DNA from: Trichormus sp. ATA11-4-KO1
GTDB taxonomy: Bacteria > Cyanobacteriota > Cyanobacteriia > Cyanobacteriales > Nostocaceae
NCBI GenBank assembly: GCA_019358915.1
Contig: JAHHIM010000023.1
Span: 12,317 to 76,316 of the forward strand
Length of the DNA stretch: 64,000 nt
Direction: 5' to 3'
Both the position numbers and the translations under genes were made by a program. This document shows positions 57,668-64,000 of the stretch, one piece after another (position 1 is the first letter of the stretch; every line of letters starts with the position of its first letter). The notes below the pieces were generated by a model. The model saw nothing but the letters and a program-made list of their open reading frames with translations, was not told the origin of the DNA and searched no databases.

Positions 57668-58228
57668 GCTGAATTATCCTCACCTATAGTTGAATAAAAA
57701 TTGCTCATACTCATATACTATATATATCAAAAAAGCAATTTTTGTTAAAATTTTTAACATACTTCATCAATACCGAGAAATGTGAATTAAGTCACTAGTC
57801 TTTCTGCTACTAATAGGTTATATATAGTTAGTAAAACTAAATATCCTCAATAAATACTAGCAAAGTTAATAATAAATCTGTAAGTTAAGCCGCATTTTTA
57901 ATTTTCAATACTTTCTCTCTTTTGGTTGATTTAAACTAAATATAGAGAGATTTATCTTAAATTGAACTAATTATATCAAATCACAAAAATCCTGGAAATT
58001 TGCATCATGAAAGAGTGGCAAGATTGAATATTTTGAATTATTTTTGTAAATGCAGCTATATTTTAACAATCAAGAATGACAAAGAAATGACAAATAATCG
58101 AGTTATCCAATTTTTCAAATAGCAATCTACACGTAGTTGGTTAGTAATAAGAGGGGATTCTATTGCCAAAAACTCGTTTATAAGTAGTAGAGTCAATAAT
58201 TTTGAGCGGAAGACATATAAAAAAATCG

Positions 58229-59650
58229 ATGAAACAGCAAACTTACACAGCCTCCATCCAGGAAAATATTACCCAGTTAAATTCTACAATCGCCAAGAAT
58301 TTAACCGGAGTACAAAGAAACAAGAAAAAATCTGCATATGGGCTATCCGTTCGCTCTATTTTGTTGGTTGCTAGCTTATTCAGCATGGGAGTACTGATGG
58401 CAAGTTGTGGATCTTTGCCAAAAGAATCTGCTAAGGCACAATCTCAACAACGAGGTGGAAGAGAGCGAGGTAGCAATGCAACACCTGTAGATGTAGCGAT
58501 CGCCCGCACTAGCTCGTTAGGCACACCACTAATTTATACAGGTAATACTACGCCATTTCGTAACGTGTCACTGCGATCGCAAGTAGAAGCCAGGTTATTA
58601 GCATTGAACCTAGATGTAGGCGATAGAGTTGAACGAGGACAAAACGTCGGACAGCTCGATGATGCCCTGCTGTTGACATCATTAAAGCAAGCAGAAGCAG
58701 AACTAGCAGCCCTCAAATCAGAAGTAGCCAGGGCACAGACTCAGGTAAGTAATGCCAGAGCCGAAGTCGAAAGGGCACGATTAGAAGTTGTACAAGCCGA
58801 GGCAGACTCAAAACGACAACAAGAACTCTTCACAGCCGGAGCCATCTCCCAACAAAATGCCGAACAAGCACGCACTGAAGCCAAAACCGCAGCCCAGGCA
58901 CTAAGAGCAGCCGAGGATCGGGTGCGTACAGAACAGGAAGCCGTCGCCGCCGCCCAAGGCAGAGTAGTTGCCCAACAAGCAGTAGTTGCTCAAACAAAAG
59001 AGCGCAGATCCTACGCGCGTCTAATCTCACCCATTACTGGTGTGGTCACAGAAAAAGTGACAGAACCGGGCAATCTTCTCCAACCAGGTATTGCAGTCCT
59101 CAACATTGCCGACTTTAGCCGTGTCATAGTGAGATTTAATGTTTCCGACAGAGATTTATCCAAAATTCAAGTAGGACAATCTGTACAAGTCAGCTTAGAT
59201 GCTTTCCCCAATGAGTCATTAATTGGCAGAGTGACACGCATCTCTCCAGCTGCAAATACTACGTTAATACCAGTAGAAGTAGTGATTCCCAATAACGACG
59301 GCAAAATTGGTAGTGGATTATTGGCACAAGTCAATTTTGAACCCCAGACATCACAGCGAGTAGTAGTGTCACAAAGAGCTATTCAGGAAGAAGTAGGAAG
59401 TAAACAGTCTTCTTCTACAGAGGAGCGAAATGGGACAGTGTTTGTCATTACAGACACAGAAGGCAAGACCAAGGTAACAGCACGCGCCGTTACCTTAGGG
59501 AACAAAGCTGATGGCAATGTGGAAATTTTATCTGGCTTGCAACCGGGAGAGGGCTATGTTGCTCGTAGTGGTAAGCCTTTAAAAGACGGTGACGCTGTAG
59601 TTTTATCAGCTTTGTCAGAAACAGCAGAGTCAACCTCTGCGGCAAATTAA
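58229..59650 (+). CDS. RND efflux membrane fusion protein
   Basis: Possible lipobox MASC, coiled-coil hairpin, ISPITGVV, VEILSGLQPGE; start uncertain. Confidence 0.92.
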   Translation: MKQQTYTASIQENITQLNSTIAKNLTGVQRNKKKSAYGLSVRSILLVASLFSMGVLMASCGSLPKESAKAQSQQRGGRERGSNATPVDVAIARTSSLGTPLIYTGNTTPFRNVSLRSQVEARLLALNLDVGDRVERGQNVGQLDDALLLTSLKQAEAELAALKSEVARAQTQVSNARAEVERARLEVVQAEADSKRQQELFTAGAISQQNAEQARTEAKTAAQALRAAEDRVRTEQEAVAAAQGRVVAQQAVVAQTKERRSYARLISPITGVVTEKVTEPGNLLQPGIAVLNIADFSRVIVRFNVSDRDLSKIQVGQSVQVSLDAFPNESLIGRVTRISPAANTTLIPVEVVIPNNDGKIGSGLLAQVNFEPQTSQRVVVSQRAIQEEVGSKQSSSTEERNGTVFVITDTEGKTKVTARAVTLGNKADGNVEILSGLQPGEGYVARSGKPLKDGDAVVLSALSETAESTSAAN

Positions 59651-59691
59651 AAGTTTTTCACCTAGCCCTTTTAATTGGAGATGAGCAATAG

Positions 59692-62600
59692 ATGCAGCAA
59701 ATACATAAGGGCGGCGGATTTAGTATCAGTACCATTTCCATCCGCCGACACATCGGCACACTCATGCTGGCCCTGGCAGTAATTGTATTAGGCGTATTTT
59801 TTGTCATAAAACTACCCGTAGATTTACTACCATCAATTACTTATCCCCGAATTGGCGTGCGGTTACAAGCACCGGGAATTACACCAGAAGTAGCGATTGA
59901 TGAAGTGACCAGGCCTCTCGAAGAAGCCTTTACCGCTACCGAGGGCGTGCTACAGGTTTTTTCCCAAACTCGTGAAGGACAGGTCAGTTTGGATCTGTAT
60001 TTTCAACCGGGAGGTAATATTGACCAAGCCTTAAACGATGCTACAGCTGCCTTTAATAGAGCTAGAAGTAATTTACCAGACACTATTGAAACACCACGTT
60101 TATTCAAATTTGATCCTTCTCAATTACCAGTTTATGAATTTGCATTAACTTCGCCTTCTTTAGAAAGCCTTGATTTGCGGGTTTTTGCCGAAGAAGAATT
60201 AGCCCGCGAATTAGGTGTTGTACCGGGAGTAGCCGGGGTAGATGTATCGGGAGGAGTTAACGAAGAAGTTAGAGTCAATATTGATTTGAATCGCTTGCAG
60301 GCTTTGGGTGTAGGTTTAACTGATGTATTAGATGAACTGAGAAACCGCAACCAAGATGTTTCTGGTGGTCGAATTTTAGGGCAAAATTCTGAGCCATTGA
60401 CTCGGACTGTGGGGCGTTTCCAAAGTGCGGATGAAATTAAAAATTTATCTTTTGAAGTATCTGCTCCATCTTCCCCAGAAATTAATTCCCAAACCCAAAT
60501 TATCAACCGCCGCGTTTATTTGCGAGACTTTGCCGAAGTTATTGATGGCTCAGAAAAACAAAGGATTTACGTTTTACTTAATGGAGAACCAGCTGTTAAA
60601 GTCAGCATCCAAAAGCAGCCAGATGCCAACACAGTTAACGTTGTCGATGGTGTCAAAAAACGCCTGGAAGAACTCCAAGCCTCTGGTGTAGTTCCTGAAG
60701 GGACAATACTGACACCTACATTAGATGAGTCGCAGTTTATCCGCAATTCTATTTCTAACGTAGCCATTTCCGGGTTGATTGGTACGGGACTAGCTGCCTT
60801 TGCTGTTTTATTATTTCTGGGTTCCCTACGGCAAACTTTTATTATTGTCATTGCTATACCCTTGGCAAGTTTAGCCGCCATTATCTTGATGGGGGTATTT
60901 GGCTTATCCCTTAACGTATTCAGTTTGGGTGGTTTAGCCCTAGGTGTGGGTATCGTTGTAGATAACTCTATCGTCATGTTGGAGAACATTGCTGAGGGTG
61001 CGGGGATGACTCCCGGTAAAGATACAAAAACCCGCCTGGATACCCAGCAACTCATTCAACAAGCTGAACAAAGTAGTCAGGAAGTAGAATCTGCCTTAAT
61101 AGCTTCTACCAGTACAAACTTAGTCGCAGTGATGCCATTTTTGCTCATCGGTGGTTTCATCTCACTACTGTTCAATGAATTAATTCTCACCATCACCTTT
61201 TCTGTAGCAGCTTCCATTTTGATTGCGGTGACCATCATCCCCATGCTCACATCCCGCACCTTAGCATGGCAATTTTCTAGTGGATTAAATAGATTTTGGC
61301 CGCTACAAGAATTTAATCGCCGCTTTGATGCAGCCACAAATAGATATGGTCGTTTCTTGGCAGGGATTTTACATTGGCGATTATTAACAGTCGCGATCGC
61401 TATTATCCTATTTGGTGGCGGTAGTTTGTGGATGGCTCCGCAAATTCCCCAAGAAATCCTCCCTCGGATTAGCACAGGACAAGCTAGATTAAATGCTCAG
61501 TTTCCTCCCGGTACGCCCTTGGAAACAAACCGCAAAGTTATGGCTATGGTCGATGAAATTCTCCTCGACCAACCAGAAACTGAATATGTATTTTCTACAG
61601 CTGGCGGCGCACTTTTTGGTACTAATACTAACGCTAATCCCCTTAGAGGTACTAGTACTATTACCCTCAAACCGGGTACAAATGTAGAAGCTTACATAGA
61701 ACGAGTCACACAAGAGTTTAACAAACTCAATTTAGTGGGAATTCGCCTGCGCCTTTCTCCTGGTCAAGTACGGGGTTTAATTCTCAGTAACTCTCCAGTA
61801 CGTGGTGCTGATGTTGATATTATTCTTCAGGGCAACGACACAGATAGTTTAGAACAAGCTGGTCGGGAAGTACTGAATGCCTTAGAAGAACAAGCTACTT
61901 TAGTCAGATTCCGTCCCGATGCCGATGAGCGTCAACCTGAAGTTCAGATTCGTCCTGACTGGGAGCGCGTGGCAACTTTTGGGTTAAGCACTAGAGATAT
62001 TGGAGACACAATTCAGACAGCGATTGAAGGTAGTGTGCCTACTCGACTACAACGCAGTAACCGTCTAGTAGATGTCAGGGTGCAGTTGAATGAAGCATCA
62101 CTGCAAAGTGTTTCTCAATTAGGGAGCTTGCCTTTATTTGTCAACAACAATCGCCAAGTCCGCCTGAGCGATGTCGCCACAATTACCGAAGGACAAGCAC
62201 CTGGAGAAATTCAGCGAATTAATCAACGTCAGGTCGTCATACTTGCAGGCAATTTGACTGAGGGAGCTAACCTTAGTGATGCTTTTACACAGGTAGATAC
62301 AATCCTCAATAGGATAGATTTACCTGAAGGCGTTAGTGTCTTGCCCAGTTCAGCAGCTGAATCTAATCAGGAACTACAAAACTCGTTACAGCTATTGGGT
62401 GGATTAGCTAGCTTTCTCGTGTTTGTAGTGATGGCAGTACAATACAATTCACTTATTGACCCATTAGTAATTATGTTTACAATTCCTTTGGCATTAGCTG
62501 GGGGAATTTTTGGGCTTTTCATTACAAATACTGCCATTGGTGCGACGGTGATTGTCGGGGCTGTGTTATTGGTGGGTATTGTTGTGAATAACGCCATCAT

Positions 62601-62931
62601 CATGGTGGAACTGGCTAATCAAATTCGTGAACGAGATCAGGTTGACCGGAAAACTGCCATTTTGCAAGCTGCTCCCCAACGCCTACGTCCAGTATTAATG
62701 ACTACCATCACTACTGTTTTAGGGATGTTTCCCCTAGCATTGGGAATTGGGGAAGGGTCAGAATTTTTGCAACCATTGGGAGTGGTAGTATTTTCGGGTT
62801 TGTCTTTGGCAACATTGCTAACGCTGTTTATTATCCCCTGTTTTTATACTCTGCTCCACGATTTATTAAATTGGCGTTGGGCGAAGCCAATGTTAATCCA
62901 TTTGGATGGATGGAAGAAAAAATTCTACTAA
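59692..62931 (+). CDS. RND efflux permease (AcrB-like)
   Basis: LPVDLLPSI, GIVVDNSIVMLENI, RLRPVLMTT. Confidence 0.96.
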   Translation: MQQIHKGGGFSISTISIRRHIGTLMLALAVIVLGVFFVIKLPVDLLPSITYPRIGVRLQAPGITPEVAIDEVTRPLEEAFTATEGVLQVFSQTREGQVSLDLYFQPGGNIDQALNDATAAFNRARSNLPDTIETPRLFKFDPSQLPVYEFALTSPSLESLDLRVFAEEELARELGVVPGVAGVDVSGGVNEEVRVNIDLNRLQALGVGLTDVLDELRNRNQDVSGGRILGQNSEPLTRTVGRFQSADEIKNLSFEVSAPSSPEINSQTQIINRRVYLRDFAEVIDGSEKQRIYVLLNGEPAVKVSIQKQPDANTVNVVDGVKKRLEELQASGVVPEGTILTPTLDESQFIRNSISNVAISGLIGTGLAAFAVLLFLGSLRQTFIIVIAIPLASLAAIILMGVFGLSLNVFSLGGLALGVGIVVDNSIVMLENIAEGAGMTPGKDTKTRLDTQQLIQQAEQSSQEVESALIASTSTNLVAVMPFLLIGGFISLLFNELILTITFSVAASILIAVTIIPMLTSRTLAWQFSSGLNRFWPLQEFNRRFDAATNRYGRFLAGILHWRLLTVAIAIILFGGGSLWMAPQIPQEILPRISTGQARLNAQFPPGTPLETNRKVMAMVDEILLDQPETEYVFSTAGGALFGTNTNANPLRGTSTITLKPGTNVEAYIERVTQEFNKLNLVGIRLRLSPGQVRGLILSNSPVRGADVDIILQGNDTDSLEQAGREVLNALEEQATLVRFRPDADERQPEVQIRPDWERVATFGLSTRDIGDTIQTAIEGSVPTRLQRSNRLVDVRVQLNEASLQSVSQLGSLPLFVNNNRQVRLSDVATITEGQAPGEIQRINQRQVVILAGNLTEGANLSDAFTQVDTILNRIDLPEGVSVLPSSAAESNQELQNSLQLLGGLASFLVFVVMAVQYNSLIDPLVIMFTIPLALAGGIFGLFITNTAIGATVIVGAVLLVGIVVNNAIIMVELANQIRERDQVDRKTAILQAAPQRLRPVLMTTITTVLGMFPLALGIGEGSEFLQPLGVVVFSGLSLATLLTLFIIPCFYTLLHDLLNWRWAKPMLIHLDGWKKKFY

Positions 62932-63053
62932 GAAAACAGTAGTATGATACGCTCTACCCGTTTTCCATTTGGGAAAATATAGGTTTTTATTAGGGGTGCA
63001 GGTTTTGCGCCCCTATAATTTTATTGCCGCCAAACTTATCTTGAAAAGATTAA

Positions 63054-63365
63054 GGAAAAGTTGATGAAACTCTCGCTCTGATTTCTCCACTTAAAGCTAA
63101 AGCGGCTCAAAACTTTTGCCAGTATTTGTCAACCCATCGCCATCGAATTATCAATTATGATTATTATCAAACCGAAGGTATTTGCTCTATCGGTTCTGGT
63201 GCCATCGAGTCTACTATCAAACAGATAGATCGGCGATTAAAAATATCGGGAGCACAATGGAACGAATCTAATGTCTCTCAAGTCCTCAGGCATCGCTGTG
63301 CTTATCTTAATGACAAGCTTTAGGTGCTACTAGTTCTTTTGTTCTAACAAAGTTGAGATGCTCCC
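63054..63365 (+). mobile_element. ISKra4-family transposase 3' remnant with right terminal repeat
   Basis: GKVDE...RIINYDYYQ..ICSIGSGAIESTIKQIDRRLKISGAQW; end sequence aaagttgagatgctccc at 63349-63365. Confidence 0.82.
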
Positions 63366-63839
63366 AATTGTCTCAAAGGCAAACCTGAACATTTGGGTAT
63401 TGAAGTCATTAAAGAATACGGAAAACTACCACTTATAGAGTGCTATGCCGGACAACTAAATCAGGTATTTATGAATATTTTAACTAATGCTATAGATGCG
63501 TTAGAAGAACGAGACCAACAACGCACTTGGCAGCAAATAAAACCCTCTTCTAGCAGAATTTATATTCGTACACAAATGCTGAATGAGCATCAAATTAGTA
63601 TCAAAATCAGAGATAATGCTCTAGGCATACCAGAAAATATAAAACAACTAATTTTTGATCCTTTCTTTACCACAAAACCAATTGGTAAAGGAACAGGCAT
63701 GGGTATGTCTATTAGCTACCAGATTATTACCAAAAATCATGGTGGTAATCTTTATTATATTTCATATCCAGGTCAAGGAACAGAATTTGTGATTGAGATT
63801 CCTCTAAAACAGCAGGTCAAATCTTATAGTAGGGGATAG
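63366..63839 (+). pseudogene. Histidine kinase HATPase C-terminal remnant
   Basis: QLNQVFMNILTNAIDA, FDPFFTTKPIGKGTGMGMSI; no HisKA or sensor domain; frame begins at the IS end. Confidence 0.85.
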
Positions 63840-63856
63840 ATGTGAAAGTCTTTTGA

Positions 63857-63995
63857 TGTCTGCTAACACTTTATTGTCAGTGGGACGATAACTTGTCCAT
63901 AAATGGAAGCATAAGTTGTCCTAAATAAGTTCTATTGAATCTAATTCTGCGTGTTTTTATCACACATTTTTTGACAATTGGAAGCATAAATTGTC
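63857..63995 (+). mobile_element. Probable Tn7-family transposon end (TGT terminus plus TnsB-like sites)
   Basis: TGT-N5, then 14-mers ending TTGTC at 63865, 63884, 63907 and 63982. Confidence 0.55.
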
Positions 63996-64000
63996 TAAAC

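What the first reader, a model, noticed from the sequence alone, without database searches (positions are those of the whole stretch)
63857..64000. Probable Tn7-family/CAST-type transposon end at the window's right edge
Seen: TGT at 63857, five bases, then related 14-mers AACACTTTATTGTC (63865), GACGATAACTTGTC (63884), AAGCATAAGTTGTC (63907) and AAGCATAAATTGTC (63982); the last three are each preceded by TGG. Known: Tn7-family elements, including cyanobacterial CRISPR-associated transposons, end in TGT plus ~5 nt followed by arrays of TnsB sites about 19-23 bp apart; CATAAGTTG and GACAATAAAGT (reverse of the first site) resemble Tn6677- and Tn7-type sites as I recall them. Inference: an element starts here, 17 bp past a truncated kinase gene rather than at a tRNA or glmS, and runs rightward; the predicted 5-bp target duplication is TTTGA (63852-63856). 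Alternative: the sites face the other way, the terminus is ACA at 64001-64003, and the kinase/IS remnants are leftover cargo. No tns or cas genes are inside the window.
Basis: partly seen in the sequence, partly recalled or inferred. Interest (0 to 1): 0.75.

Follow-up and report, generated by a model that had tools for sequence, protein, structure and literature searches.

The report
Tn7-like transposon targeting CHAT-gene ends
The window edge is one end of a small CRISPR-free jumping gene of cyanobacteria whose family lands at a fixed distance behind a conserved motif at the tail of CHAT-protease genes, a multi-copy landing site I could not find described.

Summary
The repeats are real transposase sites, but the terminus is TGT at 63875, not 63857, and the duplication is TTTAT (63870-74). 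Bases 63875-64000 are the first 126 bp of a 5,795-bp cargo-less element (tnsAB fusion, tnsC, one tnsD; no cas) held complete on contig C28. Its last 127 bp start contig C14, followed by TTTAT. The target is not the kinase. Both left ends lie 41 bp past the Trp codon of the HPY[YF]W motif ending a CHAT-domain gene. Across 389 family genomes, 14 of 17 left-end matches sit at +41/+42 of a CHAT motif. With metagenome hits these make seven distinct CHAT sites, five with perfect duplications; the sister genome has empty sites. A 98%-identical element in another Nostoc lies at the equivalent position of a 60%-identical locus. Best reading: TnsD reads CHAT-tail codons as Tn7 TnsD reads glmS (inferred, untested). 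The window junction also seems to hold a 6-bp relic of an older insertion 1 bp away, later rearranged beside the kinase. No paper searched names this target. New variant of the TnsAB-fusion Tn7-like clade.

The parts
63875..64000 (+). First 126 bp of the right (tnsAB-proximal) end of a 5,795-bp TnsAB-TnsC-TnsD transposon; the contig breaks here in the repeat
   Evidence: 100% identical to the first 126 bp of G000:C28:51056-45262
63875..63882 (+). 8-bp terminal sequence starting TGT (true terminus)
   Evidence: Same terminus on C28 and C60, one base different in L010; the left end begins TGTTAGTG
63881..63897 (+). TnsB-type site 1
   Evidence: function inferred from position and repetition at both ends
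63904..63920 (+). TnsB-type site 2
   Evidence: same 16-mer opens the left end
63979..63995 (+). TnsB-type site 3 (a fourth, weaker one follows in the complete copy)
63870..63874 (+). 5-bp target-site duplication TTTAT; second copy follows the left end at C14:128-132, beside a TPR-CHAT gene
63863..63873 (+). Probable relic of an older insertion at the same site: last 6 bp of a left end (CTAACA) plus CTTTA, the 5 bases that flank the degraded right end on C60; offset 1 bp from the newer duplication
   Evidence: inference
63826..63862 (+). First half of a ~77-bp dispersed repeat; homology to the sister genome stops at 63862 (rearrangement breakpoint)
63366..63839 (+). C-terminal remnant (HATPase part) of a sensor kinase that is intact (708-codon frame) in sister genome G001; flank, not cargo
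63052..63365 (+). 3' fragment of an ISKra4-family IS standing where the 5' part of the kinase is in G001
   Evidence: (NF033572 E 1e-25, below cut-off because fragment)

Best explanation
The window edge is the right end of a second copy of a minimal Tn7-like transposon (tnsAB fusion 903 aa, tnsC 399 aa, tnsD 521 aa; 5,795 bp). SHOWN: ends, 5-bp duplications, gene content, and that left ends of this family sit 41 (rarely 42) bp past the first base of the Trp codon in the C-terminal Y-x-[HN]-P-x-[YF]-W-[AG]-x-F motif of CHAT-domain genes, always left end toward the gene, leaving the CHAT frame intact. INFERRED from the family: TnsD's C-terminal helix-turn-helix modules read the non-wobble bases of those codons; TnsD loads TnsC; TnsC recruits TnsAB, which cuts and pastes the element at a fixed distance. 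Because the motif occurs in 1-6 paralogues per genome, one protein gives the element several near-neutral landing sites in most hosts of the family, and mini-elements of 63-304 bp are mobilised or left behind there. INFERRED for this locus: two insertions 1 bp apart at the C14 CHAT gene (older: right end on C60; newer: this one), then a rearrangement that joined the kinase locus 6 bp inside the older left end.
For: Element, ends and duplications. Closest solved proteins are a TnsD and a TnsAB integrase (8v32_J E 4.5e-148; 9bw1_M 1124 bits). Both left ends in G000 are at +41 of CHAT genes (PF12770); chance for one random end about 7e-7. Flank-blind left-end search: 14 of 17 matches in 389 genomes are CHAT-flanked, 12 at +41 and 2 at +42; 12 of 13 exact matches. 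Metagenomes: 6 of 15. Seven distinct targets share only 32-53 of 72 bases pairwise; distance is constant although the stop codon falls 6 nt earlier in two of them. Perfect duplications at 5 sites. Empty orthologous sites in G001. L010: Tns proteins 94-98% identical, inserted at the same codon of a 60%-identical flanking gene. A related family shows the tandem arrangement end-TSD-end directly (L192).
Against: No transposition or binding was measured. Only the C28 copy shows tnsD and a CHAT-adjacent left end on one contig; the other sites are minis, remnants or contig ends whose mobilising TnsD is not seen, and the flanks of the six close TnsD relatives (P0002-P0007) could not be fetched. Nine of the 14 genome hits are one orthologous site (possibly one ancient event). 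One exact left-end match (L122) is not CHAT-flanked. A matrix built without this genome ranks two unoccupied CHAT ends above the C14 site (ranks 2, 3 against 4), so the exact recognition rule is unresolved. The C23-C14 join rests on the duplication and on exact overlap with the element ends, not on reads.
Confidence: 0.85

Rival explanations
1. The site is chosen by something other than TnsD reading the CHAT codons: the convergent partner gene, a head-to-head transcription junction, or a host protein bound there.
For: At sites A, C, D, F, G and L010 the same uncharacterised ~345-aa gene converges on the CHAT gene. The array-targeting relatives could not be reconstituted in E. coli, and host factors were suggested (PMC11837452).
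Against: The window/C14 target has no such partner: in G001 its neighbour is a different gene. The distance is fixed to the Trp codon, not to either stop codon. The motif lies on the left-end side at the 40-50 bp range reported for TnsD sites of this clade (PMC11837452).
Confidence: 0.08
2. One ancestral insertion beside a CHAT gene was spread by duplication or recombination of the whole locus; no targeting.
For: One site (C) is shared by many Nostoc genomes as decaying minis, which fits inheritance.
Against: Five different perfect duplications; targets only 44-74% alike while the two G000 copies are identical over the 253 bp compared; empty sites in G001; a 98%-identical element in a 60%-identical locus.
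Confidence: 0.03
3. RNA-guided targeting (CAST-like), with a Cascade supplied in trans.
For: The clade holds type I-B2 and I-D CASTs (PMC9881144); the genome has several CRISPR arrays.
Against: No cas gene in the element; one TniQ in the genome, of the long DNA-binding type; the two targets match elsewhere only over 15-17 bases, outside the array-like places found; targets vary at wobble positions. The assembly shows no contig under 10 kb, so a spacer could be missing.
Confidence: 0.02
4. One reading: terminus at 63857, duplication TTTGA, target at the kinase end.
For: TGT at 63857 exists and a site-like 14-mer follows.
Against: 63857-63862 belongs to host DNA shared with G001; no other copy of the element carries 63857-63873; the partner end carries TTTAT.
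Confidence: 0.01

Closest known systems
CRISPR-array-targeting Tn7-like elements of cyanobacteria (PMC11837452; first three of six parts read, supplements searched)
   Same: tnsAB fusion, tnsC, single tnsD, no cargo, several copies per genome, defective minis, motif 40-50 bp outside the left end, multi-copy target
   Different: Their target is a CRISPR repeat and their TnsD lacks the C-terminal HTH. This TnsD (521 aa) keeps it and is only 35% identical over 75% of its length to the TniQ on the Allocoleopsis plasmid named in that paper.
tRNA-targeting TnsD of type I-B2 / I-D CASTs (PmcCAST, McCAST; PMC9881144 sections 15 and 22 read)
   Same: Same TnsAB clade; TnsAB and TnsD match 9bw1_M and 8v32_J (that these entries are PmcCAST is recalled, not from a call)
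   Different: No cas genes, no second TniQ, no tRNA at the C28 or C14 flanks. About 50 extra residues (profile 355-408, a second HTH-like module) absent from 8v32_J.
Prototype Tn7 TnsD / attTn7 in glmS (PMC2918618; passages read)
   Same: A conserved protein C-terminus is read at non-wobble positions and insertion falls just past the gene, sparing it
   Different: glmS is a single essential gene; here the target is a motif in a paralogous family (12 CHAT matches in this genome). TnsA and TnsB fused; no TnsE; target on the left-end side.
Tn5469-type minimal elements (described as untargeted in PMC9881144 and PMC11406308; passages read)
   Same: Same three genes, ~5.9 kb, similar end motif; TnsAB 56-59% identical to such elements on Tolypothrix and Nostoc plasmids
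   Different: TnsD only 33-36% identical; different end sequence; those elements show another motif (TAGCGAA) 43-45 bp outside one end. That L192 is Tn5469 itself was not established.

Membership tests
Tn7-like transposons, TnsAB-fusion clade | Fused TnsA endonuclease + TnsB DDE transposase | tested here: met
   903-aa ORF with PF08722, PF00665, PF09299; 1124 bits to 9bw1_M
Tn7-like transposons, TnsAB-fusion clade | AAA+ TnsC | tested here: met
   399 aa, AAA_22 and TniB, Walker A/B present
Tn7-like transposons, TnsAB-fusion clade | TniQ-domain target selector with zinc-finger and C-terminal DNA-binding part | tested here: met
   PF06527; CxxC/CxxH motifs; profile and fold match to TnsD 8v32_J
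Tn7-like transposons, TnsAB-fusion clade | TGT/ACA ends with repeated TnsB sites and 5-bp duplication | tested here: met
Tn7-like transposons, TnsAB-fusion clade | TnsD-dependent cut-and-paste transposition | not testable with these tools
   needs an assay
CAST (I-B2, I-D, V-K) | cas effector genes and an array inside the element | tested here: not met
   three ORFs fill the 5,795 bp
CAST (I-B2, I-D, V-K) | Short Cas-coupled TniQ or a homing spacer | tested here: not met
   single TniQ in the assembly; no spacer-length match to the targets; assembly may be incomplete
tRNA-targeting TnsD elements | tRNA gene next to the left end | tested here: not met
   0 tRNA in L006 and L007, while 12 of 29 loci of distant TnsD relatives hold one
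CRISPR-array-targeting elements | Insertion in a CRISPR spacer; TnsD without C-terminal HTH | tested here: not met
   flanks are CHAT genes; C-terminal module aligns to 8v32_J 348-461

The most novel reading that the evidence does not exclude
A clade of Tn7-like elements has evolved a TnsD that recognises the codons of a protein motif shared by a dispensable, multi-copy gene family (CHAT caspase-like proteases), tolerating targets only half identical. It thereby has 1-6 safe sites in about nine of ten genomes of the family, fills them and re-inserts in tandem. Its TnsD branches among the ~520-aa 'second' TniQs of tRNA-targeting elements, so those unexplained second selectors may also read repeated protein or DNA motifs, and the sister elements called untargeted may have a fixed motif too.
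Probability: 0.6. Interest if true: 0.72.

Novelty: new variant of a known kind. Interest (0 to 1): 0.62.

Why it matters
Known Tn7-family attachment sites are single conserved genes (glmS, parE, comM, nrdB/D), tRNAs, resolution sites or CRISPR repeats (PMC11406308 table passage; 10.1101/2025.07.27.667033 passages). A TnsD aimed at a paralogous protein motif would be a further way to get many safe sites with one selector. With seven natural targets and a close structural homologue bound to DNA, it gives a direct test of how TnsD specificity is rewritten, and a three-gene, multi-site integration tool for heterocystous cyanobacteria.

Tried and rejected
Terminus at 63857 and the ACA-at-64001 alternative: rejected. 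Kinase or IS as target or cargo: rejected. Viral-contig scan for the left end: 0 hits. Plasmids: no record covers 80% of the element; best TnsD matches are under 45%. TnsD search of 401 order genomes: no close relative, best 34-41%; genome contigs gave only L010. Searches centred on G129 reached only 8 and 20 genomes and gave nothing useful. An order-wide 'CHAT tail + TGT' pattern with one mismatch was too loose (192 of 401 genomes; 122 matches not listed); the 3 CHAT-like hits I fetched were chance, so range outside the family is untested, not excluded. L174, a CHAT gene 2.3 kb from a tniQ, is not an insertion at the motif. The element is in public soil and other metagenome runs, but the four runs laid gave no flank letters. 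PADLOC: no match for the CHAT genes or partner. The first target-alignment script had an index error (corrected in 84; its motif count and BLAST were unaffected). The tree is the quick version, midpoint-rooted, SH-aLRT only. Literature: no paper with Tn7 + CHAT domain + TniQ; one CRISPR classification paper listed for Tn7/TnsD/CHAT/cyanobacteria, not read; listed for CHAT domain/cyanobacteria/transposon, none about transposon targeting by title; 'CHAT' absent from the main text of four papers and from the held supplements of three (one file was cut when stored; accession-only tables or figures could hide such elements; bioRxiv supplements and subscription papers not seen). Earlier findings of this scan: none returned.

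Full report
1. Observation. Three share TGGRASSATAANTTGTC (63881, 63904, 63979): 3 matches against 0.03 expected, 0 of 100 shuffles. The window ends at the end of contig C23. A genome search found the same DNA on C28, C60 and C14. Identity with C28 covers 63874-64000, and the terminal TGT common to all copies is at 63875.

2. The element. C28:45262-51056 is 5,795 bp, TGT...ACA, flanked by AACTC on both sides. It encodes TnsAB (903 aa; PF08722, PF00665, PF09299), TnsC (399 aa; AAA_22/TniB) and TnsD (521 aa; PF06527) and nothing else. Nearest solved chains are an integrase (9bw1_M, 1124 bits) and a TnsD (8v32_J, E 4.5e-148 by profile, 3e-23 by fold; model pLDDT 75). The window holds its first 126 bp and C14 opens with its last 127 bp, both exact. 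Both carry TTTAT outside. So the window edge is the right end of a second copy whose body was collapsed in assembly (inference from duplication and overlaps). The genome has one TniQ match and one further broken tnsAB on C63. It is not a CAST.

3. The target. Both left ends follow the stop codon of a CHAT-domain gene (PF12770 E 2e-54 and 1e-44), with TGT exactly 41 bases after the first base of the Trp codon of HPY[YF]W. A random end would land there with p about 7e-7. I then searched for the left end without regard to flank. In 389 genomes of the family there were 17 matches in 15 genomes. Fourteen were CHAT-flanked: 12 at +41, 2 at +42. The three others were L116 and L129 (one mismatch, no further sites, probably chance) and L122 (a true mini-element end beside another repeat, 160 bp from a contig start). 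In metagenomes a 19-base pattern gave 15 matches, 6 CHAT-flanked at +41, two of which duplicate this genome's contigs; the other 9 show no second site or partner end, though two CHAT-flanked remnants show none either. Collapsing orthologues leaves seven targets (A C28, B C14/window, C a Nostoc site seen in 9 genomes and 3 metagenome contigs, D L102/L132, E L130, F L127, G L117). They share 32-53 of 72 bases; invariant are TA, A.CC, T, TGGG, TTT, T, GG, mostly first and second codon positions. The spacing holds where the stop codon comes 6 nt earlier (C, D). Duplications are perfect at A, B, C (in L126, L165; decayed in others), F and G; minis are 63-304 bp. G001 has the A site empty with a single 5-mer, and the B gene without an element. 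L010 carries a copy with Tns proteins 94-98% identical, its right end at the same codon of the convergent partner gene, which is only 60% identical; its left end is not assembled. The invariant-based motif occurs in 56 of 61 genomes sampled, 1-6 times each. In this genome it occurs twice and both are occupied, out of 12 CHAT matches; this is partly circular, and a matrix from the five outside targets ranks occupied sites 1 and 4 and unoccupied CHAT tails 2 and 3. Those two lack the Tyr codon that all five outside targets have.

4. The junction in the window. In G001 the kinase is intact and followed by unrelated DNA after 63862, and the B gene converges on the gene that in this genome lies on C60 beside a third, decayed right end. 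That end is flanked by CTTTA. The window reads CTAACA, the last six bases of a left end, then CTTTA overlapping TTTAT by four bases (63863-63874). This fits two insertions at the same CHAT gene one base apart (+42, then +41), after which a rearrangement joined the kinase locus six bases inside the older left end (inference, about 75%). A related family shows such end-duplication-end tandems directly (L192). The kinase was truncated separately by an ISKra4-type element.

5. Mechanism. Shown: anatomy, fixed spacing, orientation, duplications, empty sites. From established knowledge: Tn7 TnsD binds non-wobble bases in the last 36 bp of glmS and insertion falls about 25 bp beyond (PMC2918618, passages); in this clade the recognised motif lies 40-50 bp outside the left end (PMC11837452). 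Inferred: this TnsD reads the CHAT-tail codons, loads TnsC and directs TnsAB. The CHAT frame survives; the overlapping partner gene has its last codons replaced at A and L010. Six relatives at 68-73% identity form a clade with this TnsD (SH-aLRT 100 in a quick tree), nested among ~520-aa TniQs that are either the second TniQ of tRNA-targeting elements or the only one of minimal elements. They carry about 50 residues more than 8v32_J, resembling a second HTH module. Their flanks were not seen.

6. Comparison and novelty. All testable features of the TnsAB-fusion Tn7-like clade are met; CAST, tRNA-targeting and array-targeting definitions are not. PMC9881144 (sections 15, 22, term search), PMC11837452 (parts 1-3 of 6), PMC10293859, PMC11406308 and 10.1101/2025.07.27.667033 (term searches, passages) list glmS, tRNA, parE, comM, comEC, yhiN, nrdB/D, methylase, resolution sites and CRISPR repeats; the word CHAT was absent from the four main texts and three supplement sets searched. 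Library searches found no paper on this target. Subscription papers and unseen supplements could still hold it.

7. Verdict. End identity about 0.97; CHAT targeting by TnsD about 0.85; new variant of a known kind; interest 0.62.

Noticed in passing
G000:C56:1798-2113 (L168), C15:~23283 (L167); L067, L070, L079, L100, L171, L192, L193: A second family of TnsAB-TnsC-TniQ ends (Tn5469-like) has a TAGCGAA-type motif 43-45 bp outside one end in several genomes and plasmids, so it may be sequence-targeted although such elements are described as untargeted; other ends of the family lack the motif. The target's identity is unknown.
   Followed up: partly
L192:733-7001: Full 5.9-kb element and a 317-bp mini in tandem, sharing one 5-bp duplication, on a Tolypothrix plasmid.
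   Followed up: no
G000:C60:389-459: Decayed third right end, cut after 71 bp by unrelated DNA and an IS1380-like remnant (family label recalled) that also starts C58.
   Followed up: partly
window 63052-63839: An IS fragment replaces about 550 codons of a GAF/PAS-like sensor kinase that is intact in G001.
   Followed up: yes
window 63826-63862: Half of a ~77-bp imperfect dispersed repeat with about 14 other copies in the genome.
   Followed up: no
L006:10030-11073 and homologues in L010, L040, L113, L119, L132, L163: An uncharacterised ~345-aa protein without Pfam or PADLOC match that converges on CHAT genes in kinase-TPR / haemagglutinin-like clusters.
   Followed up: no
L119-L128, L165: Mini-elements at one Nostoc CHAT site range from 63 to 294 bp and collect further small repeats and an IS66-like element (label recalled) inside.
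   Followed up: partly
window 58202-62931: Ordinary RND-type efflux pair (membrane-fusion protein and 1079-aa transporter), conserved in G001; names from the translation, not from a family search.
   Followed up: no
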